This document shows positions 13,386 to 41,883 of a DNA stretch of 64,000 bases, one piece after another. The DNA is from Patescibacteria group bacterium (lineage in GTDB: Bacteria; Patescibacteriota; Patescibacteriia; Patescibacteriales; JAQVLT01): assembly GCA_028704015.1 (NCBI GenBank), contig JAQVLT010000004.1, positions 6,052 through 70,051 on the forward strand, in the 5' to 3' direction. Position 1 is the stretch's first letter. Each line of letters begins with the position of its first letter. The position numbers and the translations under genes were made by a program. Below the pieces are notes generated by a model. That model worked only from the letters and a program-made list of their open reading frames with translations. It was not told where the DNA came from and ran no database searches.

Positions 13386-13456
13386 CGGAGTGTGGTATAA
13401 CGGTATTACGCACGCTTCGGGTGCGTGTAATCCGGGTTCAATTCCCGGCACTCCGA
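13386..13456 (+). tRNA. tRNA-Pro (anticodon CGG)
   Basis: Cloverleaf folded by hand: acceptor CGGAGTG/CACTCCG, U8, A14, GG in the D loop, anticodon stem CACGC/GCGTG with loop TTCGGGT (U33, CGG, G37), T arm CCGGG-TTCAATT-CCCGG, discriminator A. 71 nt, CCA not encoded. Confidence 0.65.
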
Positions 13457-13479
13457 CAAAATCAAAAAACTCTTACTCT

Positions 13480-14220
13480 ATGAAAAAATTATACCTGTTA
13501 ATTATTTTTATTATTATTTTAGGCGCCTATTTGTATTGCTCCTATGTTTTTATTTACAAAAAAATTGATTGGGCTGGCTTAAGATCGCCTGACAGCCAAA
13601 AAATTTATTTAATCAATAACAATATGCAATCCGGTAAAAATTTGATCTACGTTGCCCTGGGCGATAGTTTAACTGCCGGCGTAGGCGCGGATAAATACGA
13701 ACAATCTTTTACTTATTTATTAGCGCAAAAAATAGCCGGCGATAATCAGATAACTTTAAAAGATTACGGATTGCCAGGCGCTAAGACCGATGATTTGATA
13801 GAAAAACTTTTAAATTCAGCGATTACCGATCAGCCGGATATTCTGACACTATTGATTGGCGTTAATGATGTGCATTATCGGGTTGGCAAAGACGAATTCC
13901 AAAAAAATTACGATGAAATTTTGCGACAACTTACCGCGAAAACAAAAGCCAAAATTTATTTGATTAATATTCCTTACATCGGCGCCAATGATTTGATATT
14001 GCCGCCTTATGATTCTTATTTTGAGTCGCGCGCTCAAGAATTTAACGTCGTAATTAAGGAATTGGCGGAAAAATATCAACTTAAATATATTGATTTATAC
14101 ACCCCGACCGTAGACCAGTTCAAAAAAAACGGCCCGCATTATTCGGCCGATTCTTTTCACCCTTCCGCCGAAGGTTACGCTGTTTGGGCGCAAATAATTT
14201 ATGATCAAATCAATCAGTAA
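13480..14220 (+). CDS. SGNH/GDSL-family hydrolase
   Basis: GDSLTAG (block I), GVNDV and DSFHPSAEGY (catalytic His block). Start set at MKKLYLL because the track's upstream Met would run through the tRNA. Confidence 0.75.
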   Translation: MKKLYLLIIFIIILGAYLYCSYVFIYKKIDWAGLRSPDSQKIYLINNNMQSGKNLIYVALGDSLTAGVGADKYEQSFTYLLAQKIAGDNQITLKDYGLPGAKTDDLIEKLLNSAITDQPDILTLLIGVNDVHYRVGKDEFQKNYDEILRQLTAKTKAKIYLINIPYIGANDLILPPYDSYFESRAQEFNVVIKELAEKYQLKYIDLYTPTVDQFKKNGPHYSADSFHPSAEGYAVWAQIIYDQINQ

Positions 14221-15346
14221 TCCCATTGAAGCCACTTGGATTTTTTCCATTATTTTAATTATCGCGTTGCTGGCCACCGCGCGCCGCAAGAAAGACAACG
14301 ATTTTTTTTCTCTCGCACTCACGCAAGAGTTGAAGGGGTTGGCGATTTTAGCCGTGGTCTTTTCGCATTTCGGTTATTTTTTGACAAGCGATAATCATTT
14401 TTTATTTCCGCTATCCACCTTGGCGGGCGTGGGCGTTAATCTGTTTTTGCTTCTTTCCGGGCTCGGGTTGGTTACCAGCGCCCTGAAAAAACCGTTGCCC
14501 ATTTTCCAATTTTATAAAAAACGTTTGTTGAAATTGTTCGCGCCGCTTTGGATCACGCTAATTGTTTTCTTAACTTTGGATTATTTTGTTTTGCATTTGA
14601 CTTATTCTTGGCCGGTAGTTCTTCAGGCATTTTTGGGCATCTTTCGCCACGCGAACCTCTATACCGATATCAATTCGCCGCTTTGGTATTTCACTTTGAT
14701 TTTATTTTATTATTTGATTTTTCCTTTGGTTTTTTCAAAAAAATACCCTTGGCTCTCGGCTTTGATTATTTATTTTGTTCCGTATTTTATCTTACGGGAA
14801 AATCCGGGCTGGCTGATTAATGTTTTGGGAATGTATCAGGTGCATCTCATGGCTTTTCCGTTGGGAATGATTTTTGGCTGGTTATTTTATAATCCCGGCT
14901 GCTTGGCGCGATTGCCATGGTTTAAAGTAATCGCCGAAAAACTCAAATGCCAAAATAAATTTGCCAAGCTGGTAAAAAATATTAAACCCGCCAGTTATTA
15001 TTTTCTAATGATTTCTTTGATCGTTTTTATTATGCACTTTGTTTGTTATTCCGGAGTGGGTGAGGGGCTCGACAAGGAACAATGGATTAGTATAATTACA
15101 GTCCTGGCGATTATGTTTTTGTTCATCATAAAAAAAATTGAATTTAAATTGTTTTATTGGTTTGGCGTGTACTCTTATGAAATTTATTTAATTCATTGGC
15201 CGCTGGCTTATCGTTATGATGTATTTTATAAATACTTGCCGGCTTGGCTCGCGACTGTTTTTTGTCTGGCGTTTGTTTGGTTTTTAAGCAAAGGGCTGAA
15301 TAAATTGTCAAAAATAATTTTAAGTAAAACTGTTAAACTAAATTAA
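14201..15346 (+). CDS. Acyltransferase-3 family membrane O-acyltransferase
   Basis: ELKGLAILAVVFSHFG hallmark and about 10 TM segments. Overlaps the SGNH gene by 20 nt. Confidence 0.75.
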   Translation: MIKSISNPIEATWIFSIILIIALLATARRKKDNDFFSLALTQELKGLAILAVVFSHFGYFLTSDNHFLFPLSTLAGVGVNLFLLLSGLGLVTSALKKPLPIFQFYKKRLLKLFAPLWITLIVFLTLDYFVLHLTYSWPVVLQAFLGIFRHANLYTDINSPLWYFTLILFYYLIFPLVFSKKYPWLSALIIYFVPYFILRENPGWLINVLGMYQVHLMAFPLGMIFGWLFYNPGCLARLPWFKVIAEKLKCQNKFAKLVKNIKPASYYFLMISLIVFIMHFVCYSGVGEGLDKEQWISIITVLAIMFLFIIKKIEFKLFYWFGVYSYEIYLIHWPLAYRYDVFYKYLPAWLATVFCLAFVWFLSKGLNKLSKIILSKTVKLN

Positions 15347-15351
15347 AATTT

Positions 15352-16362
15352 ATGAATCTTGGCAATCTAAATGTAATCTTAAAATCGTTTCCGTCTTTTC
15401 GCTTTAAACAAGCTGAAGAGGCGATTTACAAAAATCTAATCTCTAATTGGAATGAATCAAATTTACCGAAAGAACTGAAAGAATTATTAAGCAAAGAATG
15501 TCCGCTGGAAATTAAAGCTGAATTGCTAAAATCTAAAGACGGAAAAACTTACAAAGCTTTAATTAATTTGGAAGATGAAAACGCTATTGAGACAGTCCTG
15601 ATGCGCCATAAAGATGACCGAAATACCGTCTGTGTTTCCTCGCAAGTCGGCTGCGCGCTGGGCTGTGATTTCTGCGCCACTGGAAAATCAGGTTTTAAAA
15701 GAAATTTGACCAGCGGAGAAATTATTGAGCAGGTTTTATTTTTTGCTCGTTTCTTAAAAAAAGAAGGCCAAGCAATTACTAATGTAGTATTTATGGGAAT
15801 GGGGGAGCCATTATTAAATTACGACGAGGTGATAAGAGCGATTAAAATTATCAATGACAAAAATAAATTTAATATCGGCGCGAGAAAAATTTCCGTTTCC
15901 ACTGTCGGAATTATTGAAGGCATAAAAAAATTAACCAAAGAACCTCTGCAAATAAATTTAGCGCTTTCTCTACACGCGCCCGACGATAAACTAAGGAATG
16001 AACTCATGCCGATAAACAATAAATATCCGCTAAAAAAAATACTGAGTACGATAAAAGAATATATCGCGAGAACTAACCGCAAAGTAATGATAGAATATTT
16101 GATGCTTGAAAATATCAATGACTATCCCGAGCAAGCCGTTCAATTAGCGGAGTTATTGAACAATAATTTAGAAAGTTTGTACTTCGTAAATTTAATTTCC
16201 TATAACCCAACGGGAATATATAAACCGTCACGCTCCGAAAGAATTGAAAAATTTAAAGAAAATCTGGAAAAATGCGGAGTAGACGCCATTCAAAGATATC
16301 GTTACGGCGTTGATATTAAAGGCGCTTGCGGACAGTTGGCGGGAAAAAGACGCACGAAATAA
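15352..16362 (+). CDS. rlmN: 23S rRNA/tRNA adenine-C2 methyltransferase RlmN (radical SAM)
   Basis: CALGCDFCATG CxxxCxxC cluster and a GMGEPLLN motif. Confidence 0.8.
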   Translation: MNLGNLNVILKSFPSFRFKQAEEAIYKNLISNWNESNLPKELKELLSKECPLEIKAELLKSKDGKTYKALINLEDENAIETVLMRHKDDRNTVCVSSQVGCALGCDFCATGKSGFKRNLTSGEIIEQVLFFARFLKKEGQAITNVVFMGMGEPLLNYDEVIRAIKIINDKNKFNIGARKISVSTVGIIEGIKKLTKEPLQINLALSLHAPDDKLRNELMPINNKYPLKKILSTIKEYIARTNRKVMIEYLMLENINDYPEQAVQLAELLNNNLESLYFVNLISYNPTGIYKPSRSERIEKFKENLEKCGVDAIQRYRYGVDIKGACGQLAGKRRTK

Positions 16363-16364
16363 TT

Positions 16365-17069
16365 ATGATTATAAAAAATAAAAAAATAATTCACGGAATT
16401 TCTCTCAGAAAAAACGGCTCAATGAAATTTCTCGGCAACATTCAAGATGAATTAATTAAAAATAACAGAAAAAAATTCTTTGCCAAAATTAATATCAAAG
16501 AAAATAATATTATTTCCGCCGGCCTGTCGCACCAAGATAATATAAAAATAATTTCGCAAAAAGACAAAGGAAAAATAATCAAGAATTGCGACGGACTCGT
16601 CACTATTGAAAAAAATTTAATTTTAACCGTAACAGTTGCCGATTGCCTGCCAATTTTTATTTATGATCGCGAGAAAAAGATTGCGGGAATTATTCATGCC
16701 AGCTGGCGCAATTTGCGTTTGAATATTTTATCCCAGGCCGTTGAGCTATTAAAAAATAAATACAAAATCAATCCAAAAAATTTGTTAGTTCATATTGGTC
16801 CGTATATTAGTAAATGCCATTTTGAGGTAAAAAACGACGTCGCAAATAAATTTAAAAAATATAAAAATGCGATAATTATAAAAGATAAAAAAATATTTAT
16901 TGATTTGGCGGAAATTGCCAGAGGGCAATTAATAAGAGGGGATATAATAAAGAAAAATATAAAAATCAGCAAAGAATGTACGTATCACCAAAAAAATAAA
17001 TATTTTTCGCATCGTCGTGAAAAAACCAAAGATATTAAAGCAATGATCGCGTATATCGGCTTAAAATAA
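16365..17069 (+). CDS. pgeF: Peptidoglycan editing factor PgeF / YfiH (DUF152 laccase-domain protein)
   Basis: TVADCLPIFIYD and HASWRN motifs. Start at MIIKNKK just after the rlmN stop. Confidence 0.7.
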   Translation: MIIKNKKIIHGISLRKNGSMKFLGNIQDELIKNNRKKFFAKINIKENNIISAGLSHQDNIKIISQKDKGKIIKNCDGLVTIEKNLILTVTVADCLPIFIYDREKKIAGIIHASWRNLRLNILSQAVELLKNKYKINPKNLLVHIGPYISKCHFEVKNDVANKFKKYKNAIIIKDKKIFIDLAEIARGQLIRGDIIKKNIKISKECTYHQKNKYFSHRREKTKDIKAMIAYIGLK

Positions 17070-17092
17070 TTGTAATATAATAAATTTAAATT

Positions 17093-17677
17093 ATGAATTT
17101 TGCCCATTGGTTAGTTATATTAAGCGTATTTGTAAGCGCTAGCGGTTCCTACGCGTATATTCGTGATACGTTAAGCGGAAAAACAAAACCAAATCGCGTG
17201 TCTTGGTTAATGTGGTCATTGGCGCCGCTTATTGGAACTTTAGCTGCTTTATCAATAAAAGCTGATTTTTGGGCAACTTCTCGTATTTTTTTGGCAGGAT
17301 TTTTCCCCCTGCTAGTTTTTATATTTTCTTTTGTAAACCCAAAAAGTTATTGGAAATTAACCATATTTGATGTTATCTGCGGTATTTGTTCTGTAGTCGC
17401 TTTAATTGCTTGGTGGTTAATAAATTCACCACAAATAGCAATACTTATGTCTGCGATTGGAGATGGTTTTGCTGCTCTGCCCACTATTAGAAAAGCTTGG
17501 AAATTTCCCGAGAGTGAAACTGGAATAACTTATGCCGCCGCATTAATAAGTGTCATACTAGTCCTGCCTTCCATCCCTGTTTGGGATATTAAAAATTCTG
17601 CTTTCCAAATTTATCTTTTACTAGCCAATTCAATTTTATTGTTTGCCGTGTATCGAAAAAAAATATTTTCATTATAA
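17093..17677 (+). CDS. Hypothetical integral membrane protein
   Basis: Five or six hydrophobic segments. Confidence 0.5.
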   Translation: MNFAHWLVILSVFVSASGSYAYIRDTLSGKTKPNRVSWLMWSLAPLIGTLAALSIKADFWATSRIFLAGFFPLLVFIFSFVNPKSYWKLTIFDVICGICSVVALIAWWLINSPQIAILMSAIGDGFAALPTIRKAWKFPESETGITYAAALISVILVLPSIPVWDIKNSAFQIYLLLANSILLFAVYRKKIFSL

Positions 17678-17681
17678 AAAC

Positions 17682-17948
17682 ATGTTAAAAAAAATTATCA
17701 AAACATTTCAAGATAAAAAAGAAGTTTATTTGCGCGTAAAAATTCATCCCAACTCTTCCCAAAATAAAATTACGGAAATAATGTCTGATGAAACCGTTAA
17801 AATCAATATCGCCGCGCAGCCGGTCAAAGGAAAGGCAAATCAGGAATTGATAAAATTTCTGGCGCAAGAATTTGGCGTGACAAAAAATAATATCAAAATT
17901 ATCAGCGGAGCGGGGGAGAGAGTAAAATTGGTAAAAATTATTGGATAA
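17682..17948 (+). CDS. DUF167 (YggU) family protein
   Basis: AQPVKGKANQELIKFLAQEFGV...ISGAGERVKLVKI fits the DUF167 pattern. Start at MLKKIIK. Confidence 0.6.
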   Translation: MLKKIIKTFQDKKEVYLRVKIHPNSSQNKITEIMSDETVKINIAAQPVKGKANQELIKFLAQEFGVTKNNIKIISGAGERVKLVKIIG

Positions 17949-17953
17949 TTTTA

Positions 17954-18003
17954 TTTTGTCATCTCAACGATCCCGCCCGCGGCGGGACTCGGAATGACAA
18001 AAA
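17954..18003. repeat. Short palindromic element with TTTTGTCAT / ATGACAAAA termini and internal TCCCGCCCGCGGCGGGA hairpin
   Basis: The terminal inverted repeats match the larger element at 41900-42060. The core hairpin is near-identical to the anticodon-arm replacement in the pseudo-tRNA at 13306-13321. Confidence 0.5.
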
Positions 18004-18009
18004 TGATGT

Positions 18010-18669
18010 ATGGAAACCAATTCTAAAAAAATTCCCAATCATATCGGCATAATCATCGGCGGCCAAGAAGAATGGGCGCGTGAACGCAATCTGCCGAAAG
18101 AAGACGGCTATGCCAAGTCTTTTGAAAAAATTTGGCGCGCGCCAAGTTGGTTTTTTAATAATGGCGTAAAAATTATTTCGGTTTTGATTTTATCCGCCAG
18201 CGATTGGGAAAAAGATCAGGAAAAATTAAATAATTTGCTCAAACAACTAAAAATTTCTCTGGAAAACCAGTTGAAAGAAGATTTTCATTTCAAAATAAAT
18301 ATTTATGGCGCGACCAATGAGCTTCCCGGTGATCTACCAGATCTTTGCGCGGAAATTATTGATAAAACAAAAAACAATTCCGAGGGGGCACTAAACCTTT
18401 TTATAAATTACAGCGGCCGAGGAGAAATAATAGGCGCGGTGCAAAAAATGATAAACAATAATATACAAGTTGAACAAACTCACGAGGGAATTTTAAGAAA
18501 ATATTTATTAAGCAGCGAGGCGCCTGACCTTGATTTGATTTTATTAACCGGCGGCATTAAAAATTTACCAGACTTTTTGCCTTGGCAATCTATCAATAGC
18601 CGGATAATTTTGTCCAACAAATATTGGCCGGACATTGAAGAGAAAGATGCGGAAAATATTTTAAAATAA
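18010..18669 (+). CDS. Undecaprenyl-diphosphate synthase (cis-prenyltransferase) family protein, divergent
   Basis: HIGIIIGGQEEWA aligns to the UPPS HVAIIMDGNGRWA box, and LLTGG...PDFLPWQS...WPD to the C-terminal RTSGE...FLLWQ...WPDF box. In this by-eye alignment the catalytic Asp position is Gly. Confidence 0.55.
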   Translation: METNSKKIPNHIGIIIGGQEEWARERNLPKEDGYAKSFEKIWRAPSWFFNNGVKIISVLILSASDWEKDQEKLNNLLKQLKISLENQLKEDFHFKINIYGATNELPGDLPDLCAEIIDKTKNNSEGALNLFINYSGRGEIIGAVQKMINNNIQVEQTHEGILRKYLLSSEAPDLDLILLTGGIKNLPDFLPWQSINSRIILSNKYWPDIEEKDAENILK

Positions 18670-22973: not shown

Positions 22974-23981
22974 TTACAAATTTTTATCGCATTTCGCGCA
23001 ATGCCCATGATTGTCAAATCTCTCAATATTATAATCGAAACGCCGGATCGCTAGCTCACCGCAGGCAGGGCAATAGGTATTTTCTTTTTCATCGCCCGGC
23101 ATATTGCCGGCATAAATATATTTAAGTCCAACATTTTTGCCGATTTCATAAGCGCGATAAATTGCTTCATTCGGTGTTGGCGATAAATCTTTCAATTTCC
23201 AGGAAATTTCCGGAGAAAATTTGCTAATATGCCAAGGCGTTTCTGCACCTAATTCTTTTACGATAAACTCAGCTAAACCTTTTAACATTTTCGTATCATC
23301 GGATAGAGTCGGAATAATTAAAGAGGTAATTTCCGTGTGAATTTGTTCGGCTTTTAATTTTTTTAAATTTTTTAAAACCGGCTTAACTTTTGCTCCGCAA
23401 TATTTCTGGTAGAATTTATCATCAATTGATTTTAAATCAATATTCACGGCATCAAGATAGGGGATTATTGCTTCCAAGCATTCGTCCGACATAAAACCAT
23501 TTGATACCCAAATATTTTTTAATTTATTTTTCTTAGCCAATTTCATAATATCCAGCGCATACTCGGCAAAAATTGTCGGCTCATTATAGGTATACGAAAT
23601 TGACTGGCAATTATTTTCTAAAGCTGTCTCAACAATTTCTTTTGGCGTAAAATACTTTTGACCCGCCTCTTCGGCGGGCAAGCTTTTTAACTTTTTTTGG
23701 CTAATATCCCAATTCAAACAATTGGCGCAGCGAAAATTACAACCAAAAGTTCCTAGGGAATATGTATAACTTCCTGGTAAAAAATGAAAAAGCGGTTTTT
23801 TCTCAATCGGGTCAATATTTATAGCCACCGGATAGCCATAAACTAAAGACTCTAAAATTCCGTTCTCATTTTTTCTAACTCCGCAAATTCCTACATTTCC
23901 ATCTTGAATTTTACAGAAATGATGGCAGAGGTTACATTGAACAGTTTTATTATTTAATTTTGTATAAAATTTTGCTTCCAT
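22974..23981 (-). CDS. AmmeMemoRadiSam-system radical SAM enzyme (PFL-activating-enzyme-like)
   Basis: N-terminal CxxCxxxC-like Zn/Cys cluster (CNLCHHFC), radical SAM GCNFRCANC cluster and overall length and pattern typical of AmrS. Confidence 0.7.
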   Translation of the reverse strand: MEAKFYTKLNNKTVQCNLCHHFCKIQDGNVGICGVRKNENGILESLVYGYPVAINIDPIEKKPLFHFLPGSYTYSLGTFGCNFRCANCLNWDISQKKLKSLPAEEAGQKYFTPKEIVETALENNCQSISYTYNEPTIFAEYALDIMKLAKKNKLKNIWVSNGFMSDECLEAIIPYLDAVNIDLKSIDDKFYQKYCGAKVKPVLKNLKKLKAEQIHTEITSLIIPTLSDDTKMLKGLAEFIVKELGAETPWHISKFSPEISWKLKDLSPTPNEAIYRAYEIGKNVGLKYIYAGNMPGDEKENTYCPACGELAIRRFDYNIERFDNHGHCAKCDKNL

Positions 23982-24375: not shown

Positions 24376-24930
24376 ATGGAGACTAAACGTCTATTTTTAG
24401 CATTAAATTTATCAAGCAAGGAAAAAGATATAATTTTCAGCACAATCGAAGTTTTGGCGGCGCAAAGCAACGGCATAAAATGGGTGGGGCCGGAAAATCT
24501 GCATATCACTTTGCGATTTTTGGGCGATATTGATACCGAATTAGAAGAAGAAATAAAATTGGAATTAGAAAAATTGGAAAATAACTTTGGCGAATTGAAA
24601 TTTCAGGCGAGAGATTTGAGTGCTTTTCCGAATTCAGACGAACCGCGCGTTATTTATCTTGACAGTTTTCAGACTAATGGCCAAACGGCTAGCAATTTGT
24701 ATTATAAAGTAAAAGAAATGGCGGAAAACTTCGGTATCAGAACCGACAATCGCCCGTGGACGCCGCACATTACTTTGGGACGAGTAAAAAACGATCGCGC
24801 CTATGCAAACTTAAAACAAAATTTCAGCGCTCTACCTTTTGATTTTTCCGTAACCAGTTTTGAATTAATGGAATCAGAACTAACTTTTAATGGCAGCGTT
24901 TATAGAATAGTGAGGAGTTATAAATTATAA
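24376..24930 (+). CDS. thpR: RNA 2',3'-cyclic phosphodiesterase ThpR / LigT (2H phosphoesterase)
   Basis: Two H-x-T-x motifs (HITLRF and HITLGR) at the expected spacing; 184 aa. A TTGCTA-17-TATTAT promoter precedes it. Confidence 0.75.
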   Translation: METKRLFLALNLSSKEKDIIFSTIEVLAAQSNGIKWVGPENLHITLRFLGDIDTELEEEIKLELEKLENNFGELKFQARDLSAFPNSDEPRVIYLDSFQTNGQTASNLYYKVKEMAENFGIRTDNRPWTPHITLGRVKNDRAYANLKQNFSALPFDFSVTSFELMESELTFNGSVYRIVRSYKL

Positions 24931-25038: not shown

Positions 25039-26283
25039 ATGAATATTTTCGGCATTAAAATTTCCAATATTAAAAAAGACGAGGTCTTAAAAAAGATTGG
25101 CGATTTTTTAGTTGACGGAAAACAGCATTATTTAGTTACGCCCAATCCGGAAATACTCCTTCAGGCCGGCGAGGACGAAGAACTTTTTTATATTTTGAAT
25201 CACGCCGATCTCGCGATTCCCGATGGCATCGGGCTGAAATTCGCCGGTTGGTTTCTGGGAGAAAATCTCAAACGGATTACCGGCGCTGATTTGGTTTTAA
25301 AAATTTTGAAAAGTGCCGGAGAAAAAAATCTGAAAGTCGGGATTGTGAATTGGAACAAGGGATTGTCAAATAAAAAAGATATTTCAAATTCATTGAAACA
25401 AAAATATCCGAAATTAAATTTTGCGGTTGAAGATGTTAATCGCGAAGAAGCTAAGCTTCCTATAGGAAGCTTAGCTTCTGATTTTTTGAATTTCAATCCC
25501 GACATTCTCTTCGCCGCGCTTGGCGCGCCATATCAGGAAAAATTTATTTTTCATAATTTAAAAAAATTGCCTTCGGTTAAACTGGCGATTGGCGTGGGCG
25601 GCAGTTTTGATTACATTACTGAAAAAGCGCGTCGAGCGCCGAAAATCATGCGAAATTTAGGCCTAGAATGGCTCTGGCGACTTTGCGGCATCTTTTCCGG
25701 ACAAAAGGATTATAATCGCAAAAAAAGGATACTTAAAGCGATTTTTGCCTTTCCTTGGAAATTTATAAAATGGCGAATTATTTTGCCTTTTTTATATCGT
25801 AATAATGTCGCTTGCCTGATGTACAAAAGGGAAGGGAATAAGTATAAAATTTTTTTGGTAAAAAGACAGAACGCGAAAGATGAACATTGGCAGCTACCAC
25901 AGGGAGGAATTGATAAAAGCGAAAATTTATTTACCGCCGGCAAGAGAGAATTACGCGAAGAAGCCGGCACGGATAAATTCAAAGCGGTGATGGCCGAAAA
26001 AAATCTTCATAAATATACATTTGATAAAAAAATAAGCAAAGAGGAAAAACAAATGCACACGGGCTACAAAGGCCAAAAGCAAAGTTTGTTTATCGCCGAA
26101 TTTTTGGGAAAAGATGAGGATATTAAAATTAATTTTTGGGATCATCTTGGTTGGAAGTGGGTTGACGCGGAGAAATTGGTTCGCGAAGTGTATTTTTTAC
26201 GCCAACCCGCCGCGAAGATTTATTTGGAGAAGTTTAATACTGTCATTGCGAGCCCCGAAACTTCGGGGCGAAGCAATCTATAA
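25039..26283 (+). CDS. WecG/TagA/CpsF-family glycosyltransferase (GT26) fused to a C-terminal NUDIX hydrolase domain
   Basis: N-terminal VTPNPE and PDGIGL motifs and an LEWLWRL C-terminal helix of the TagA family. Then a perfect NUDIX box GGIDKSENLFTAGKRELREEAG. One continuous reading frame. Confidence 0.7.
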   Translation: MNIFGIKISNIKKDEVLKKIGDFLVDGKQHYLVTPNPEILLQAGEDEELFYILNHADLAIPDGIGLKFAGWFLGENLKRITGADLVLKILKSAGEKNLKVGIVNWNKGLSNKKDISNSLKQKYPKLNFAVEDVNREEAKLPIGSLASDFLNFNPDILFAALGAPYQEKFIFHNLKKLPSVKLAIGVGGSFDYITEKARRAPKIMRNLGLEWLWRLCGIFSGQKDYNRKKRILKAIFAFPWKFIKWRIILPFLYRNNVACLMYKREGNKYKIFLVKRQNAKDEHWQLPQGGIDKSENLFTAGKRELREEAGTDKFKAVMAEKNLHKYTFDKKISKEEKQMHTGYKGQKQSLFIAEFLGKDEDIKINFWDHLGWKWVDAEKLVREVYFLRQPAAKIYLEKFNTVIASPETSGRSNL

Positions 26284-26480
26284 TATTTGGCGATTTGAAC
26301 GAACAGCAAGCCATTAAAGATCGCCACGGCCTACGCCTGCCGGCAGACAGGCGCAGCCGAAGAATCTCGGAAAGCAAAATAAGCAGGTTTTATTTTATAG
26401 AAGGCGCTCAACGGTTTCACTGAGATCCCTGCCTGCCGGCAGGCAGACTTCGTTCCGAAGCTTCGGAACTCAGGATGACA
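26253..26480. repeat. Composite GC-rich palindromic repeat region (MITE-like; ends TGTCATTGCGAG ... GGATGACAAAAA)
   Basis: Contains the palindromes CATTGCGAGCCCCGAAACTTCGGGGCGAAGCAATC, CGCCTGCCGGCAGACAGGCG, CTGCCTGCCGGCAGGCAG and GTTCCGAAGCTTCGGAAC. The 5' part overlaps the last about 10 codons of the GT26-NUDIX ORF. Confidence 0.4.
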
Positions 26481-26490
26481 AAAATAAATT

Positions 26491-27498
26491 ATGTCCAACA
26501 AAATTACTAAAAAATATTTTAAATATTCAAGCGATAATAAAAATCTTGAAAAAAATATTAATCAAGTACTCTTAGAAACTAATTTTAAAATTGAAAAAGA
26601 AATTTTCCGCGGCGTTATTTACGATCAAAACAAAGTTGGCAGTATTATTTATAAGGGTAAATGGAAAAATAAAACCGCGATTCTGAAAATTCAATTTTTA
26701 AAAATTGAAATAGACGAAGTAGAAATTATTAAAAAATTTAATGGACTGAAAAAATTCAGAAATATCAGAGCGCCGCGATTATTTGATTATAAAAAATGGA
26801 ACGCAAAAAGCGGATATGGTTATTTGATTACGGAATATATTGACGCCCCGCAAATTTACAATGCGCCATTGGCGACTGATAAACAAATCAAAACTTTTGT
26901 AAATTTTTATAAAAATTATAAAGAAAAAATTTCCGATAAGCCATTTTTACGTATCGCGCCGGATAAAAATATCTATAATCTCACCGAGCGGCGCGTTAAC
27001 CATTGGCTAAAAATCGCCCAAGCCAAAAAGACGCTTGATAATCAAGACAAAATTTATTCGGATAAATTCTTAGCGCTCGCCAAAAAATATTCACCCAAGA
27101 TTAAAATGCAATTTATGCATGGTCATCTGATGAGCCGCGATATTTACCAAATTAACAATGAAAAATTTGTCTTAATGTCCAATTTATTTTGGTCATATCG
27201 ACCGGAGTATTACGACGCGGCATTTAATCTTTGGGCAGGAATCAAAAGCATTAGAGATTTAAAAATTAAATCGCAACAAGTGATTGAATACACGCAAAAA
27301 TGGTGTAATGAGTACAAAAAACTTGATTTCATCAAAAAGGACTATGATTTTGAGAAAAAATTCAATATAATGATATTGGAGAGATGTATTGGCGCTTTGC
27401 TTGTTGATATTGACAATCAGGATTACGAAAATAAGCCAGCATTACACAAAAAACATTTAAAAACAATTTTTAGAAAATTATTTGATTATTATTTTTAG
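26491..27498 (+). CDS. Hypothetical protein, possibly kinase-like
   Basis: 335 aa; FMHGHLMSRDIY is weakly reminiscent of the phosphotransferase HGD box. Low-confidence function. Confidence 0.5.
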   Translation: MSNKITKKYFKYSSDNKNLEKNINQVLLETNFKIEKEIFRGVIYDQNKVGSIIYKGKWKNKTAILKIQFLKIEIDEVEIIKKFNGLKKFRNIRAPRLFDYKKWNAKSGYGYLITEYIDAPQIYNAPLATDKQIKTFVNFYKNYKEKISDKPFLRIAPDKNIYNLTERRVNHWLKIAQAKKTLDNQDKIYSDKFLALAKKYSPKIKMQFMHGHLMSRDIYQINNEKFVLMSNLFWSYRPEYYDAAFNLWAGIKSIRDLKIKSQQVIEYTQKWCNEYKKLDFIKKDYDFEKKFNIMILERCIGALLVDIDNQDYENKPALHKKHLKTIFRKLFDYYF

Positions 27499-27547
27499 GG
27501 AAACTTAGTTTCGGGTACCCGAAACTAAGTTTCAACAAATACAGAAT

Positions 27548-29017
27548 ATGAAAAATATTCGTTTACGTTTTGCTCCCAGCCCTACCGGCTTTTTGCATAT
27601 CGGCAGTTTGCGGACTGTCTTGTTTACTTACGCGATTGTAAAAAAAATGGAGGGAAAATTTATTCTGCGCATTGAAGACACGGATCAAAAAAGAGAAGTT
27701 GAAGGCGCGACTGAGGAATTAATTAAATCTTTGGAAAAATTTAATATTAATTTTGATGAAGGTCCGCACGTTGGCGGTGATTTTGGTCCCTACATCCAAA
27801 CACAGAGATTGGAAATTTATAATAAACATTTAAAAGATTTATTGGCCAAGGGCGAAGCGTATCATTGTTTCTGCACGCCGGAAAGATTGGGAAAAATGCG
27901 CGCCGACCAAGCCGCCAACAAACAAGCGCCCAGATATGATCGCGCCTGCCGCGATCTGAGTCCGGAAATTGTGGAAGCAAAAATCAAAACCGGAGAAAAA
28001 TTTGTTATTAGGCAAAAAATGCCATTGGATGGCGTTGTTAAAGTGTTTGATGAAATCCGCGGTGAAATAATTTACAAAGCCCAAGATTTAGACGACCATG
28101 TTTTAATTAAATCAGACGGCGTCCCTACTTATCAATTCGCGTCCGTCGTTGATGATCATGAGATGGAAATATCACACGTCACTCGGGCCGAAGAATGGAT
28201 TCCGTCATTACCAAAAAATATTTTACTCTACCAATCTTTTGGTTGGGAGCCGCCAAAATTTATTCACTATCCCGCGGTCTTGAGCAAGAACGGCGGAAAA
28301 TTAAGCAAGCGCGACGGCGACGTGGCGGTTGAAGATTATTTGAACAAAGGATATTTAGTGGAAGCGATAATAAATTTCTGCATTCTTCTCGGCTGGCATC
28401 CGAAAGATGACAACGAAATTTTATCCATGAGCGAAATAATTGAAAAATTTGACTACAAAGACATTCGTCCGAGCGGTTCAATTTTTGATGTTGAAAAACT
28501 TGATTATTTTAATGGCTATTACATTAGACAAAAGTCGTTGGATGAGCTCGCAGAATTGTGCAAGCCATATTTGGAGGAAAATTTAGCGAAGACATCAGAC
28601 AAAAAACAACAGACAAAAGAATATTTAAAAAATGTCGTGCGGTTGGAGCAGGAAAGATTAAAAAAATTATCCGAAATAGGGGAGCGAACGGAATATTTTT
28701 TCACAGACAAACTGGAATACGACGCCAAGCTTTTGGTTTGGAAAAAATCAACTCCTGAACAGACAAAAGAAAATTTTGATCAAGTTTATAAAGTACTGGA
28801 AAAAATTCCAGATGATAGCTGGACAAACAACAGCATCGGCGATGCTCTGATGAGCCACATTCAAGCAGTCGGCGGCAAAAACGGCGATTATCTCTGGCCG
28901 ATGCGCGCGGCGCTGACTGGACGTGAAGCCAGTCCCGGACCTTTTGATGTTGCTGAAGTATTAGGCAAAGAAAAAAGTTTGGAAAGAATCAAAGAGGGGT
29001 TGGAGAGGTTAAGTTAG
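27548..29017 (+). CDS. gltX: Glutamyl-tRNA synthetase
   Basis: PSPTGFLHIGS (HIGH) and KLSKRDG (KMSKS) motifs; 489 aa. Confidence 0.9.
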   Translation: MKNIRLRFAPSPTGFLHIGSLRTVLFTYAIVKKMEGKFILRIEDTDQKREVEGATEELIKSLEKFNINFDEGPHVGGDFGPYIQTQRLEIYNKHLKDLLAKGEAYHCFCTPERLGKMRADQAANKQAPRYDRACRDLSPEIVEAKIKTGEKFVIRQKMPLDGVVKVFDEIRGEIIYKAQDLDDHVLIKSDGVPTYQFASVVDDHEMEISHVTRAEEWIPSLPKNILLYQSFGWEPPKFIHYPAVLSKNGGKLSKRDGDVAVEDYLNKGYLVEAIINFCILLGWHPKDDNEILSMSEIIEKFDYKDIRPSGSIFDVEKLDYFNGYYIRQKSLDELAELCKPYLEENLAKTSDKKQQTKEYLKNVVRLEQERLKKLSEIGERTEYFFTDKLEYDAKLLVWKKSTPEQTKENFDQVYKVLEKIPDDSWTNNSIGDALMSHIQAVGGKNGDYLWPMRAALTGREASPGPFDVAEVLGKEKSLERIKEGLERLS

Positions 29018-29067: not shown

Positions 29068-29502
29068 ATGGAAAAAAAATCTAAATTGGTTGTTTTAGGG
29101 CTTGTTGAAAATCAAAACCACGAATATTTGTTAAGCCAACGTTATGATCCTGACGTCCCTGAAGCACATTTAAAGTGGGATTTACCTGGTGGAACAAATG
29201 AATTTGGAGAAAGTTTGGAGGAAACGTTAGAACGAGAGATGTTAGAAGAAACGGGTCTAAAAATTGCAATAATTAAAATGTTTCCAAAAAGTATTTCTCA
29301 CCTCTGGAATCATAAAGATTTTAAGCAACATGCTATTGTTGTTTGTTATTATTGTAAGATGCTAGATGTGACTCTCCACTTAAACGATCACAAGATTCAA
29401 GATCTGAAATGGGTTCAATTTTCAGAACTTGATATGTATGATTTTCTTCCGACAACCAAATGTTTTATTGAAATACTGGTTAAAAATAATTTTTTACCTT
29501 AG
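29068..29502 (+). CDS. NUDIX hydrolase
   Basis: NUDIX box GTNEFGESLEETLEREMLEETG. Confidence 0.7.
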   Translation: MEKKSKLVVLGLVENQNHEYLLSQRYDPDVPEAHLKWDLPGGTNEFGESLEETLEREMLEETGLKIAIIKMFPKSISHLWNHKDFKQHAIVVCYYCKMLDVTLHLNDHKIQDLKWVQFSELDMYDFLPTTKCFIEILVKNNFLP

Positions 29503-29569: not shown

Positions 29570-30610
29570 ATGGAAAAATCTAAAAATATTGAAACACCTC
29601 AATCGCCATCAGAAATAACAGTTGAATGGCTAAAAACAATACTTCCTCAAAAAATAAGCAACGAAATTATTTCCATAGAGGCGGATGAAAAATTTAGACC
29701 AAACGGACACTTGGGAAAAATTGAAAAAATTAATATTAATTATGCCGTCCAAAACCAAAATCCCGGATCGGTAATTATTAAATTTCAAAAATGTTCCAAC
29801 CCGAAAAAAGAAGCGGAAATTTATCAGCTTTTGGAAAATGCTGGCGTTTCTTATATCCCGCATTTGTACGGAAAATTCGGCGAGGGAAATTTGGTTCTGG
29901 AAGATTTATCTTCAACTCATTCGGTGCAAGAAACTTTTACCATTGACCAGATCAGACAAGTACTTTCACTGCTTGCCGATCTTGATAGCAGATTTTGGGG
30001 CGATTCCAAAATTCCCAAGGATAATTTGAGCCATTTCGTCAATTCAATCAACATAAATTTTGAGAAGGGCTGGAATAAATTTAAGAATAGATGCGAAAAA
30101 GAATTGGGAGGGGAGATTGCCGACTTTGAATGGATGTGGAAAAATCGTGAAATTATCTCAAGCTATTACAATTCAAGTCCGACAACTATGTGCCACGGCG
30201 ATGTAAACAGGTCTAATTTGCTTTTTCCCAACGACAAAAAAAATAAACCGATACTTATCGACTGGCAACTTTCCGGGCAAAAAGTGCTTCCGTTTGATCT
30301 TTCTTATTTTTTGGTAAAAGCGCTAACCGTGGAGCAGAGAAGGGAGTATGAAGAAAATTTACTTGAGGAATATTATAATTTGCTGCCTGAAAAAATAAAA
30401 TCCAATTATTCTTACAGTGACTTCATTTTAGATTACAGAGCTTGCGCAACCAGATCCATGCTTAGCGCGGTCACGAAATTCGGACCAATCTTTGAAAATG
30501 ATTTTAGTAATGAAGCGGCGGACAATTTATCAAAACGAGTTATTGAAGCCGTGAGAGATATTAAACCAATAGAAGCTATTCAAGAGTTAAGAAAATATAA
30601 AAAATTTTAA
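29570..30610 (+). CDS. Phosphotransferase-family kinase (APH/choline-kinase-like)
   Basis: CHGDVNRSNLLF (HxDxxxxN catalytic loop) and ILIDWQ (DFG-equivalent). Confidence 0.6.
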   Translation: MEKSKNIETPQSPSEITVEWLKTILPQKISNEIISIEADEKFRPNGHLGKIEKININYAVQNQNPGSVIIKFQKCSNPKKEAEIYQLLENAGVSYIPHLYGKFGEGNLVLEDLSSTHSVQETFTIDQIRQVLSLLADLDSRFWGDSKIPKDNLSHFVNSININFEKGWNKFKNRCEKELGGEIADFEWMWKNREIISSYYNSSPTTMCHGDVNRSNLLFPNDKKNKPILIDWQLSGQKVLPFDLSYFLVKALTVEQRREYEENLLEEYYNLLPEKIKSNYSYSDFILDYRACATRSMLSAVTKFGPIFENDFSNEAADNLSKRVIEAVRDIKPIEAIQELRKYKKF

Positions 30611-41844: not shown

Positions 41845-41883
41845 AAAGAAACTCAGTTTCCAATTGGAAACTGAGTTTCTTTT
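41845..41883. promoter_or_regulatory. Perfect 17-bp-stem palindrome AAAGAAACTCAGTTTCC-AATT-GGAAACTGAGTTTCTTT upstream of lysS
   Basis: A 38-nt perfect inverted repeat about 70 nt upstream of the lysS start, adjacent to the MITE-like element. Confidence 0.45.

What the first reader, a model, noticed from the sequence alone, without database searches (positions are those of the whole stretch)
25039..26283. Single-ORF fusion of a WecG/TagA (GT26) glycosyltransferase with a NUDIX hydrolase
GT26 enzymes transfer ManNAc/GlcNAc-type sugars from UDP-sugars to undecaprenyl-PP-linked acceptors. A C-terminal NUDIX domain (perfect GX5EX7REUXEEXGU box) in the same polypeptide is an architecture I do not recognise as described. 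It could hydrolyse the nucleotide-sugar donor or by-product, or regulate flux. The last about 10 codons come from a palindromic repeat element.
Basis: partly seen in the sequence, partly recalled or inferred. Interest (0 to 1): 0.55.

Follow-up and report, generated by a model that had tools for sequence, protein, structure and literature searches.

The report
TagA glycosyltransferase fused to RppH-type Nudix
One gene of this Patescibacteria (candidate phyla radiation, CPR) genome joins a complete cell-wall sugar transferase (TagA type) to a complete RppH/NudH-type Nudix pyrophosphatase; the fusion is real and common in this group of bacteria, arose from two neighbouring genes, and has never been studied.

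Summary
ORF 25039-26283 (+), 414 aa, carries Glyco_tran_WecG (GT26) and NUDIX in one frame.

It is not an assembly artefact:
- The 120 best database homologues listed (52-100% identical; 119 with both Pfam domains on record) are full length.
- 201 species-representative genomes encode a relative.
- 79 of the 80 loci examined have one uninterrupted ORF; the 80th is cut by its contig end.

The fusion is common in Patescibacteria. Databases name it only as a WecB/TagA/CpsF glycosyltransferase, and I found no paper on it.

Both halves are complete. The TagA half keeps T37, D65, Q167, R214, R221, R224 and the membrane-binding C-terminal appendage. The Nudix half is an RppH/NudH/Ap4A-hydrolase-type module, not a nucleotide-sugar type. 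Every catalytic or phosphate-contacting residue of E. coli RppH that I mapped is conserved in 116 homologues; three base-cleft positions differ.

The same locus exists in three states: tagA and nudix as separate adjacent genes (Ca. Uhrbacteria), fused (here), and LigT::Nudix (Jacksonbacteria-type).

Best reading: a membrane-peripheral bifunctional enzyme made by fusing an old gene pair. The Nudix most likely acts on 5'-polyphosphate nucleotide or RNA substrates. Removal of the transferase's UDP by-product is the main rival.

The last 13 codons do come from an inverted-repeat element. Interest is moderate.

The parts
25039..26283 (+). Fusion gene, 414 aa: TagA-like GT26 glycosyltransferase joined to an RppH/NudH-type Nudix hydrolase
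   Evidence: ORF. Pfam PF03808 + PF00293. 100% identical to an NCBI Patescibacteria MAG protein. AF2 model has pLDDT 91.5 and pTM 0.82.
25039..25770 (+). GT26 module (aa 1-244): catalytic core plus the C-terminal membrane-binding appendage (aa ~197-244)
   Evidence: Matches T. italicus TagA 7mpk at E 5e-34, and at 6.6e-52 over TagA residues 1-237 with the family profile. Foldseek TM 0.87 to 5wfg. T34, D62, Q166, R205, R214, R227 and R230 are conserved in 113-116 of 116 homologues.
25711..25791 (+). Junction: one long predicted helix (aa 225-251) that extends TagA's last helix straight into the first Nudix strand, with no flexible linker
   Evidence: Secondary structure H225-251 then E253-265, with pLDDT 90-96 over aa 231-260. 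R227, A234, F238 and R254 are invariant; P250 and Y253 are nearly so.
25792..26253 (+). Nudix module (aa 252-405), a full-length RppH/NudH/Ap4A-hydrolase-type domain beginning at the conserved 'YRxNV'
   Evidence: NCBIfam best hits are RppH models (E 6e-25, below cut-off). PDB hits: lupin Ap4A hydrolase E 4e-16, E. coli RppH E 2e-10. Foldseek TM 0.80 to 4s2y. Residue conservation.
25903..25971 (+). Nudix box G289...E304 L305 x E307 E308 x G310 T311
   Evidence: Read from the sequence. E304 is E in 115/116; E307 and E308 are E in 116/116 homologues.
25446..25479 (.). Perfect 34-nt nested palindrome inside the coding region (loop aa 136-147, 'EAKLPIGSLAS'), a member of a repeat family in this genome
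   Evidence: Sub-unit GAARCTNAGYTTC occurs 6 times in the window against 0.02 expected. Orthologues L003 and L011 have perfect 32- and 34-nt palindromes in the same loop. Lower pLDDT there (78-84).
26233..26488 (.). Inverted-repeat (MITE-like) element of about 250 nt. Its left arm supplies the last 13 codons and the stop of the fusion gene.
   Evidence: 41-nt arms 73% complementary; inner pair 26335-26351 / 26428-26444 is 94% complementary. RNA fold -98 kcal/mol, z -6.7. GC rises to 0.55. The end motif GTCATYSYGAG occurs 3 times against 0.06 expected.
24376..24930 (+). Upstream neighbour: RNA 2',3'-cyclic phosphodiesterase (ThpR/LigT)
   Evidence: TIGR02258 at 135 bits against a cut-off of 65.7. 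PF02834. Lies upstream of the fusion in at least 16 of 80 loci. Fused to the same Nudix type in other CPR lineages.
27548..29017 (+). Conserved downstream partner gltX (glutamyl-tRNA synthetase)
   Evidence: Pfam. Downstream of the fusion in 71 of 80 loci, often 6-50 nt away. Also follows the split and LigT::Nudix forms.
26491..27498 (+). Low-GC ORF (335 aa, no family match) inserted between the fusion and gltX in this genome
   Evidence: No Pfam or NCBIfam hit. GC 0.21-0.30. Homologue in only 3 of 80 loci.

Best explanation
The gene encodes a bifunctional enzyme that sits on the cytoplasmic face of the membrane.

N-terminal half (aa 1-244): a complete TagA-like GT26 glycosyltransferase. By homology it adds the second sugar to an undecaprenyl-PP-linked GlcNAc-type acceptor from a UDP-sugar. 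It becomes active when its amphipathic C-terminal appendage docks on the membrane and delivers Arg residues to the active site.

Junction: that appendage runs, as one rigid helix, directly into the C-terminal half.

C-terminal half (aa 252-405): a complete RppH/NudH-type Nudix pyrophosphohydrolase. I infer that it keeps the activity of that subfamily, which is hydrolysis of a 5'-terminal polyphosphate on a nucleotide-type substrate. Candidate substrates are pp/ppp-RNA ends, Np4 caps and dinucleoside polyphosphates.

Origin: the fusion arose by joining two genes that were already neighbours in a conserved CPR operon (tagA - nudH - gltX - M23 peptidase). The effect is to tether the organism's NudH-type enzyme at the membrane next to cell-envelope synthesis.

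Shown: domain identity, completeness, conservation, origin from adjacent genes.
Inferred: substrates, membrane tethering, and the benefit of the fusion.
For: The fusion is real and conserved.

TagA half:
- Sequence and fold match T. italicus TagA.
- T37, D65, Q167, R205, R214, R221 and R224 equivalents are conserved in 113-116 of 116 homologues.
- The membrane-patch positions stay hydrophobic. The roles of T37, D65, R214, R221, R224 and the patch come from PMC6493773.

Nudix half:
- The best NCBIfam hits are five RppH models.
- The best PDB sequence hits are lupin Ap4A hydrolase and E. coli RppH over their full lengths.
- The best Nudix fold hits are E. coli RppH structures, TM about 0.80.
- RppH residues R8, N10, R27, Q37, E53, E56, E57, Y77, Q95, E120 and K140 are all conserved or conservatively replaced: 107/116 at N10 (the rest Ser), 115-116/116 elsewhere. 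Roles come from PMC7144940.

Link to RNA and nucleotide metabolism:
- ThpR/LigT lies directly upstream here and in at least 16 of 80 loci.
- In Jacksonbacteria-type genomes the same Nudix, in the same place before gltX, is fused to LigT instead.

Origin from neighbours:
- In Ca. Uhrbacteria, tagA (251 or 275 aa) and the nudix gene (145 or 152 aa) are separate, 75 or 26 nt apart, at the same ClpB-flanked locus.

Rigid junction.

Precedent for RppH physically tied to a cell-wall enzyme: the E. coli RppH-DapF complex (PMC6061855, PMC6061791).
Against: - No activity was measured for either half.
- Scores stay below the NCBIfam equivalog cut-offs for both TarA (110 against 350) and RppH (87.5 against 116), so neither exact function can be transferred.
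- The base-cleft residues of RppH differ: S32, V137 and F139 become G/N/D, H/Y and V/I. The Tyr that stacks on uracil in TagA is not conserved.
- tagA-nudix adjacency persists in L093 even though gltX is gone. The junction is rigid and conserved. Both points fit a direct functional coupling, which this explanation does not require.
- I could not check whether these genomes carry another RppH or another TagA.
Confidence: 0.5

Rival explanations
1. Coupled catalysis. The Nudix half serves the transferase. It hydrolyses the UDP released by the GT26 reaction (UDP -> UMP + Pi), or trims the UDP-sugar pool. This relieves product inhibition at the membrane, as Golgi nucleoside diphosphatases do for eukaryotic glycosyltransferases.
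For: - tagA and the nudix gene are adjacent or fused across deep CPR lineages, including a genome where gltX is no longer next to them.
- The junction is rigid and conserved, with pTM 0.82.
- E. coli RppH chemistry is removal of orthophosphate from a 5'-diphosphate, and it slowly hydrolyses NDPs and NTPs (PMC7144940 abstract).
- The base-cleft residues differ from RppH, which leaves room for another nucleotide substrate.
- From my own knowledge, not checked here: B. subtilis TagA is reported to be inhibited by UDP.
Against: - In the LigT::Nudix lineage the same Nudix sits at the same locus without tagA within 8 kb.
- There is no similarity to known nucleotide-sugar Nudix enzymes. GDP-mannose mannosyl hydrolase reaches only TM 0.59-0.62 and no NCBIfam hit.
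- In RppH, mononucleotides bind so that their phosphates do not reach the catalytic site (PMC7144940).
Confidence: 0.27
2. The Nudix half acts on a lipid-linked diphosphate at the cytoplasmic face. It would convert undecaprenyl-PP to undecaprenyl-P, or cleave Und-PP-sugar intermediates as a recycling or proof-reading step, being held at the membrane by the TagA appendage.
For: - The Nudix follows the membrane-inserting helices directly.
- UppS lies 6 kb upstream.
- Nudix enzymes that hydrolyse prenyl diphosphates exist in plants (title and abstract of PMC9131077; otherwise my own knowledge).
- The chemistry, diphosphate to monophosphate, is the same as RppH's.
Against: - Full conservation of the nucleotide-type binding residues of RppH, including the base-stacking Arg.
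- The LigT fusion partner in other lineages points to RNA or nucleotides.
- No direct evidence for this reading.
Confidence: 0.06
3. Artefact: two separate genes were merged by a sequencing or assembly indel or by a lost stop codon in this one assembly.
For: The gene comes from a metagenome-assembled genome. One unrelated short contig (L089) does show a frameshift within the gene.
Against: - The same continuous frame occurs in 79 of 80 independent genomes and in 53 divergent cluster representatives.
- The junction residues are conserved.
- In the truly split Uhrbacteria genes the spacer has four in-frame stops, unlike here.
Confidence: 0.01

Closest known systems
TagA/TarA of Gram-positive bacteria (T. 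italicus TagA, PDB 5WB4, 5WFG, 7MPK; GT26 / WecB-TagA-CpsF family)
   Same: Same fold (TM 0.87). About 33% identity over TagA residues 1-237. Same catalytic Thr, Asp and Gln, and the same Arg-bearing amphipathic C-terminal appendage.
   Different: TagA ends after the appendage (244 aa), whereas here the last helix continues into a Nudix domain. The score is far below the TarA equivalog cut-off, so the sugar specificity is unknown. The uracil-stacking Tyr is not conserved.
E. coli RppH (NudH) and plant-type Ap4A hydrolases (PDB 4S2Y, 1F3Y)
   Same: Alignment over the full length starting at 'YRPNV'. Signatures WQxPQGG and GQxQ. All catalytic and phosphate-binding residues are conserved. Fold TM about 0.80.
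   Different: 26-33% identity. Below the RppH equivalog cut-offs. The base-cleft residues differ. The N-terminus is not free but welded to a membrane-binding helix.
E. coli RppH-DapF complex
   Same: An RppH-type enzyme physically associated with an enzyme of cell-wall precursor synthesis (PMC6061855, PMC6061791).
   Different: That association is non-covalent and the partner is a soluble epimerase. Here the link is covalent and the partner is a membrane-peripheral glycosyltransferase. No homology between the partners.
LigT::Nudix proteins of Parcubacteria/Jacksonbacteria (P0193, P0278; loci L083-L085)
   Same: Same Nudix subtype (33-36% identity, HWQLPQGG). Same position immediately before gltX and the M23 peptidase gene.
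   Different: The N-terminal partner is a 2H phosphoesterase (RNA 2',3'-cyclic phosphodiesterase) instead of TagA.
GDP-mannose mannosyl hydrolase (NudD/WcaH/Gmm), the Nudix enzyme known from a polysaccharide gene cluster
   Same: A Nudix-fold protein genetically linked to envelope polysaccharide synthesis.
   Different: Poor structural match (TM 0.59-0.62). No NCBIfam hit for the fused domain. It has a degenerate Nudix box and cleaves the glycosidic bond (PMC5389931), whereas here the box is intact.
NadM-Nudix (bifunctional NMN adenylyltransferase / ADP-ribose pyrophosphatase, PDB 2R5W)
   Same: A precedent for a Nudix domain fused to an enzyme of a related pathway. It appears among the fold and family hits.
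   Different: Unrelated partner, a different Nudix subtype, and a soluble protein.

Membership tests
GT26 (WecB/TagA/CpsF glycosyltransferases) | Match to the family models above the curated cut-offs | tested here: met
   PF03808 at 116 bits against 27.4. TIGR00696 at 92.3 against 69.
GT26 (WecB/TagA/CpsF glycosyltransferases) | Catalytic residues of TagA (Thr37, Asp65 base, Gln167) | tested here: met
   T34, D62 and Q166 are identical in 116/116 homologues. Roles of Thr37 and Asp65 from PMC6493773.
GT26 (WecB/TagA/CpsF glycosyltransferases) | C-terminal appendage with Arg214, Arg221 and Arg224 and a non-polar membrane patch | tested here: met
   R214, R227 and R230 are conserved in 115-116/116. 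Positions 203, 209, 212, 216 and 240 are hydrophobic.
GT26 (WecB/TagA/CpsF glycosyltransferases) | TagA fold | tested here: met
   AF2 model against 5wfg: TM 0.87, rmsd 2.8. This is a predicted structure, not a solved one.
TarA/TagA equivalog (UDP-ManNAc:GlcNAc-PP-Und ManNAc transferase) | Score above the NCBIfam equivalog cut-off; ManNAc specificity | tested here: not met
   NF041710 at 110 bits against a cut-off of 350. Donor sugar is not testable in silico.
Nudix hydrolase superfamily | Nudix box GX5EX7REUXEEXGU and a Pfam match | tested here: met
   PF00293 at 52 bits against 21.1. The box is intact except the last U, which is Thr. The Glu triad is conserved in 115-116/116.
RppH/NudH (RNA pyrophosphohydrolase / Ap4A hydrolase subfamily) | Score above the RppH equivalog cut-offs | tested here: not met
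   Best is NF001938 at 87.5 bits against a cut-off of 116.
RppH/NudH (RNA pyrophosphohydrolase / Ap4A hydrolase subfamily) | Residues that bind Mg and the 5' phosphates (R8, N10, R27, Q37, E53, E56, E57, Y77, Q95, E120, K140) | tested here: met
   All are conserved or conservatively replaced: 107/116 at N10 (the rest Ser), 115-116/116 elsewhere. Roles from PMC7144940.
RppH/NudH (RNA pyrophosphohydrolase / Ap4A hydrolase subfamily) | Base-binding cleft (S32, V137, F139) | tested here: not met
   Replaced by G/N/D, H/Y/F and V/I/A.
RppH/NudH (RNA pyrophosphohydrolase / Ap4A hydrolase subfamily) | Hydrolysis of ppp/pp-RNA or Np4A | not testable with these tools
   Needs an enzyme assay.
Nucleotide-sugar Nudix hydrolases (GDP-mannose mannosyl hydrolase, ADP/UDP-sugar pyrophosphatases) | Sequence or fold closer to these than to other Nudix subfamilies | tested here: not met
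   No NudD hit and only a weak NudE hit (E 0.0013). 1rya and 2i8t reach TM 0.59-0.62 against 0.80 for RppH.

The most novel reading that the evidence does not exclude
The Nudix half is mechanistically coupled to the transferase. It would be a built-in nucleoside-diphosphatase that destroys the UDP by-product (or edits the UDP-sugar or Und-PP pool) at the membrane. That would make it a bacterial counterpart of the Golgi UDPase principle, recruited from an RppH-type enzyme.
Probability: 0.27. Interest if true: 0.6.

Novelty: new variant of a known kind. Interest (0 to 1): 0.36.

Why it matters
- Patescibacteria have tiny genomes and depend on salvage, and their envelope biology is almost unstudied.
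- A conserved covalent link between a wall-glycopolymer transferase and an RppH-type pyrophosphatase suggests one of two things. Either 5'-end or nucleotide-polyphosphate turnover is organised at the membrane, or product removal is built into a lipid-linked glycosyltransferase.
- The three natural states of the locus (split, TagA-fused, LigT-fused) provide ready-made controls for testing what the fusion adds.
- Current annotation names only the N-terminal half, so the Nudix activity of hundreds of proteins goes unseen in metabolic reconstructions.

Tried and rejected
- Exact look-up of the window's own protein in the contig index found nothing.
- The 18-nt core of the 3' hairpin has no other copy in the window at up to 3 mismatches. 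The element was recognised only by folding and by an inverted-repeat search of the spacer.
- Rfam finds no RNA family at the locus; the only hit is a tRNA at 13386.
- Terminator-like hits in the region are no more frequent than in shuffles. One of them is the in-ORF palindrome.
- The first residue mapping, made with mafft --keeplength, miscounted positions after deletions. It is superseded.
- P0148, an apparently stand-alone close Nudix, turned out to be a frameshifted fusion on a 1.3-kb contig. P0179 and P0170 gave no useful context.
- Literature searches for Nudix with WecG, TagA, CpsF or Patescibacteria, and for RppH with CPR, returned nothing on this architecture.
- I could not read the model's coordinates or PAE, so the relative orientation of the two active sites and the membrane patch is untested.
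Full report
**Observation.** Window 25039-26283 (+) is one ORF of 414 aa with an ATG start and no internal stop.
- Pfam places Glyco_tran_WecG (PF03808) at aa 56-216 (E 1.9e-33) and NUDIX (PF00293) at aa 253-384 (E 8e-14). Both are well above their gathering scores.
- The Nudix box reads G289-x5-E295-x7-R303 E304 L305 R306 E307 E308 A309 G310 T311. It is canonical except that the final hydrophobic position is Thr.
- The protein is 100% identical to an NCBI entry from a Patescibacteria MAG that is named only 'WecB/TagA/CpsF family glycosyltransferase'.

**Not an artefact, and not rare.**
- The 120 best hits in the 5.8-billion-protein collection are 52-100% identical and full length. 119 of them carry PF03808+PF00293 in the precomputed annotation; the 120th (P0111) has a degenerate Nudix box.
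- A scan of one genome per GTDB species found 201 genomes encoding a relative. The best 80 loci all match across residues 1 to about 403.
- In 79 of those 80 loci a single ORF spans both domains in one frame. The exception is cut by its contig end.
- I searched the 50%-identity representative library with the Nudix half alone. Of the best 150 representatives, 53 also carry the GT26 half and the junction, with Nudix identity down to about 33%.
- Record titles are Falkowbacteria, Magasanikbacteria, Parcubacteria or 'Patescibacteria group'. Some titles ('uncultured Gammaproteobacteria', 'Methanosarcinaceae archaeon') sit on contigs with the same CPR-type locus and look like mislabels.
- Five literature searches found no paper on this architecture.

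**The N-terminal half is a complete TagA-like enzyme.**
- It matches T. italicus TagA (7mpk) at E 5e-34. With the family profile it matches at E 6.6e-52 over TagA residues 1-237 of 244.
- The AlphaFold model (116-sequence alignment, mean pLDDT 91.5, pTM 0.82) superposes on TarA/TagA crystal structures with TM 0.83-0.87.
- The residues that the TagA papers identify as important are Thr37, the catalytic base Asp65, and Arg214, Arg221 and Arg224 of the C-terminal appendage (PMC6493773). They correspond to T34, D62, R214, R227 and R230, which are conserved in 115-116 of 116 homologues. The non-polar positions of the membrane patch remain hydrophobic.
- The score is far below the TarA equivalog cut-off (110 against 350 bits), so the donor sugar cannot be named.

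**The C-terminal half is an RppH/NudH-type Nudix, not a nucleotide-sugar type.**
- The best NCBIfam hits are five RppH models (best E 6e-25, 87.5 bits, below the cut-off of 116).
- The best PDB sequence hits are lupin Ap4A hydrolase (E 4e-16) and E. coli RppH (E 2e-10). They align over essentially their whole lengths, starting at the N-terminal 'YRPNV'.
- The best Nudix fold matches are E. coli RppH structures (TM about 0.80). GDP-mannose mannosyl hydrolase reaches only 0.59-0.62.
- I mapped the residues that bind Mg2+ and the 5' phosphates in RppH (PMC7144940) onto 116 fusion proteins:

| E. coli RppH | Fusion protein | Conservation in 116 homologues |
|---|---|---|
| R8 | R254 | 116/116 |
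| N10 | N256 | N or S |
| R27 | R276 | 116/116 |
| Q37 | Q288 | 116/116 |
| E53, E56, E57 | E304, E307, E308 | 115-116/116 |
| Y77 | Y326 | 116/116 |
| Q95 | Q346 | 115/116 |
| E120 | D368 | D or E, 116/116 |
| K140 | R388 | 116/116 |

- Only the base-cleft positions differ (S32, V137, F139).
- The domain is therefore a fully equipped pyrophosphohydrolase under purifying selection. Its phosphate-handling machinery is that of RppH/Ap4A hydrolases.

**Junction.** TagA's last helix is prolonged by about ten residues. It leads with no flexible linker into the first Nudix strand (helix 225-251, strand 253-265, pLDDT about 90-96 over aa 231-260). The junction sequence (consensus KWRFILPFxYRPNV) is conserved. 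A pTM of 0.82 for a two-domain protein suggests a fixed arrangement. I could not inspect coordinates or PAE.

**Evolutionary context.**
- The locus is conserved: ClpB (opposite strand), sometimes an AmmeMemoRadiSam radical-SAM gene and ThpR/LigT, then the fusion, then gltX, then an M23 peptidase, then genes such as ddl, alr, ftsQ and serS.
- gltX follows the fusion in 71 of 80 loci, often within 6-50 nt.
- The locus occurs in three states:
  1. Split. In Ca. Uhrbacteria, tagA (251 or 275 aa) and a stand-alone nudix gene (145 or 152 aa, about 40% identical to ours) are separate. They lie 75 or 26 nt apart, and in L086 the spacer has four in-frame stops.
  2. Fused. This is the state here and in most relatives.
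  3. LigT::Nudix. In Parcubacteria UX54 and Jacksonbacteria-type genomes the same Nudix subtype, in the same place just before gltX, is fused to a LigT 2H phosphoesterase. No tagA lies within 8 kb.
- In the window, ThpR/LigT is the gene immediately upstream of the fusion. This is also so in at least 16 of 80 loci.
- The fusion thus joined pre-existing neighbours. The Nudix module can change partner while keeping its genomic position.

**Mechanism.** I commit to a bifunctional membrane-peripheral protein.
- The GT26 half works as TagA does: it is activated at the membrane and transfers a sugar from a UDP-sugar to a lipid-PP-linked acceptor.
- The Nudix half keeps an RppH/NudH-type activity on 5'-polyphosphate nucleotide or RNA substrates.
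- Support comes from complete conservation of the RppH residues and from the repeated association with the RNA-end enzyme LigT.
- The fusion would place this activity at the membrane. The E. coli RppH-DapF complex shows that RppH can be tied to a cell-wall enzyme.
- Confidence is about 0.5 for the mechanism and above 0.9 for the identity of the parts.
- The main rival (about 0.27) is catalytic coupling through hydrolysis of the UDP by-product or the UDP-sugar. Three things favour it: the tagA-nudix pairing persists even where gltX is gone, the junction is rigid, and RppH chemistry removes orthophosphate from 5'-diphosphates.
- A lipid-diphosphate substrate is a long shot (about 0.06).

**The tail and palindromes.**
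- The last 13 codons (from GTCAT at 26242) and the stop lie in the left arm of an inverted-repeat element of about 250 nt, 26233-26488. Its outer arms are 41 nt and 73% complementary, an inner pair is 94% complementary, and the RNA fold z-score is -6.7.
- A similar GTCAT...ATGACAAAAAT hairpin precedes uppS.
- Separately, a perfect 34-nt nested palindrome sits in frame in a variable loop of the GT26 half (25446-25479).
- Its sub-unit GAARCTNAGYTTC occurs six times in the window against 0.02 expected.
- Orthologues L003 and L011 carry different perfect palindromes in the same loop. L011's contains the 18-nt core seen at 26449-26466 in this window.

**Verdict.** The architecture is common in databases but undescribed and under-annotated. 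It is a new variant of known kinds, of moderate interest.

Noticed in passing
window 25446-25479, 27497-27536, 41845-41882; L003 and L011 (GT26 loop, aa ~132-141): A family of perfect nested palindromes built from the sub-unit GAARCTNAGYTTC (6 copies against 0.02 expected). One copy sits in frame inside the GT26 coding loop. Two orthologues carry different perfect 32- and 34-nt palindromes in the same loop, with changes on both arms that keep the symmetry. This resembles in-frame palindromic insertion elements such as the Rickettsia palindromic elements.
   Followed up: partly
window 26233-26488 and 17955-17998: GC-rich hairpin or inverted-repeat elements with GTCAT...ATGAC ends, followed by AAAAAT and the next gene's ATG. 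The larger one (about 250 nt, nested inverted repeats) supplies the fusion gene's last 13 codons. A related motif (GTCATCCTGAGCGAGC...CGAAGGATC) fills the tagA-nudix spacer in Uhrbacteria locus L086, 1962-2000.
   Followed up: partly
L083-L085 (gene at 8001-8984 in L083); proteins P0193, P0229, P0278: LigT (2H phosphoesterase)::Nudix fusion proteins in Parcubacteria/Jacksonbacteria-type genomes. They occupy the same position before gltX and the M23 peptidase gene as the TagA::Nudix gene. NCBI names one of them only 'RNA 2',3'-cyclic phosphodiesterase'.
   Followed up: partly
protein P0230 (560 aa), from the representative library: A radical SAM + SPASM protein with a C-terminal Nudix domain of the same subtype (39% identity to the window's Nudix half). 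Its context and origin are unknown.
   Followed up: no
window 26491-27498: A low-GC (0.21-0.30) ORF of 335 aa with no Pfam or NCBIfam match, inserted between the fusion and gltX. A 54%-identical homologue sits in the same place in L008, and weak ones in L019 and L020.
   Followed up: partly
window 29068-29502 and 29570-30610: A second, stand-alone MutT-like Nudix (144 aa) and an APH/choline-kinase-like protein lie between gltX and the M23 peptidase gene. In the five related loci examined for this (L081-L083, L086, L088), gltX is directly followed by M23, so these two look like an insertion.
   Followed up: no
window 13390-18669: A run of envelope-related genes upstream: GDSL/SGNH hydrolase, Acyl_transf_3 (O-acyltransferase type), a radical SAM gene, a Cu-oxidase_4 (PgeF/YfiH-like) gene and undecaprenyl-diphosphate synthase UppS.
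   Followed up: no
L002, L004, L007 and many other loci (record titles): Contigs titled 'Methanosarcinaceae archaeon' or 'uncultured Gammaproteobacteria' carry the same fusion-gltX locus at 50-59% protein identity to this Patescibacteria window. These are probably mis-binned contigs or placeholder taxonomy.
   Followed up: no
window 22974-23981 (-): An AmmeMemoRadiSam-system radical SAM enzyme (328 bits against a cut-off of 220) lies divergently upstream of ThpR. It is conserved upstream of the fusion in 21 of 80 loci. No AmmeMemo partner gene was seen among the neighbours scanned.
   Followed up: no
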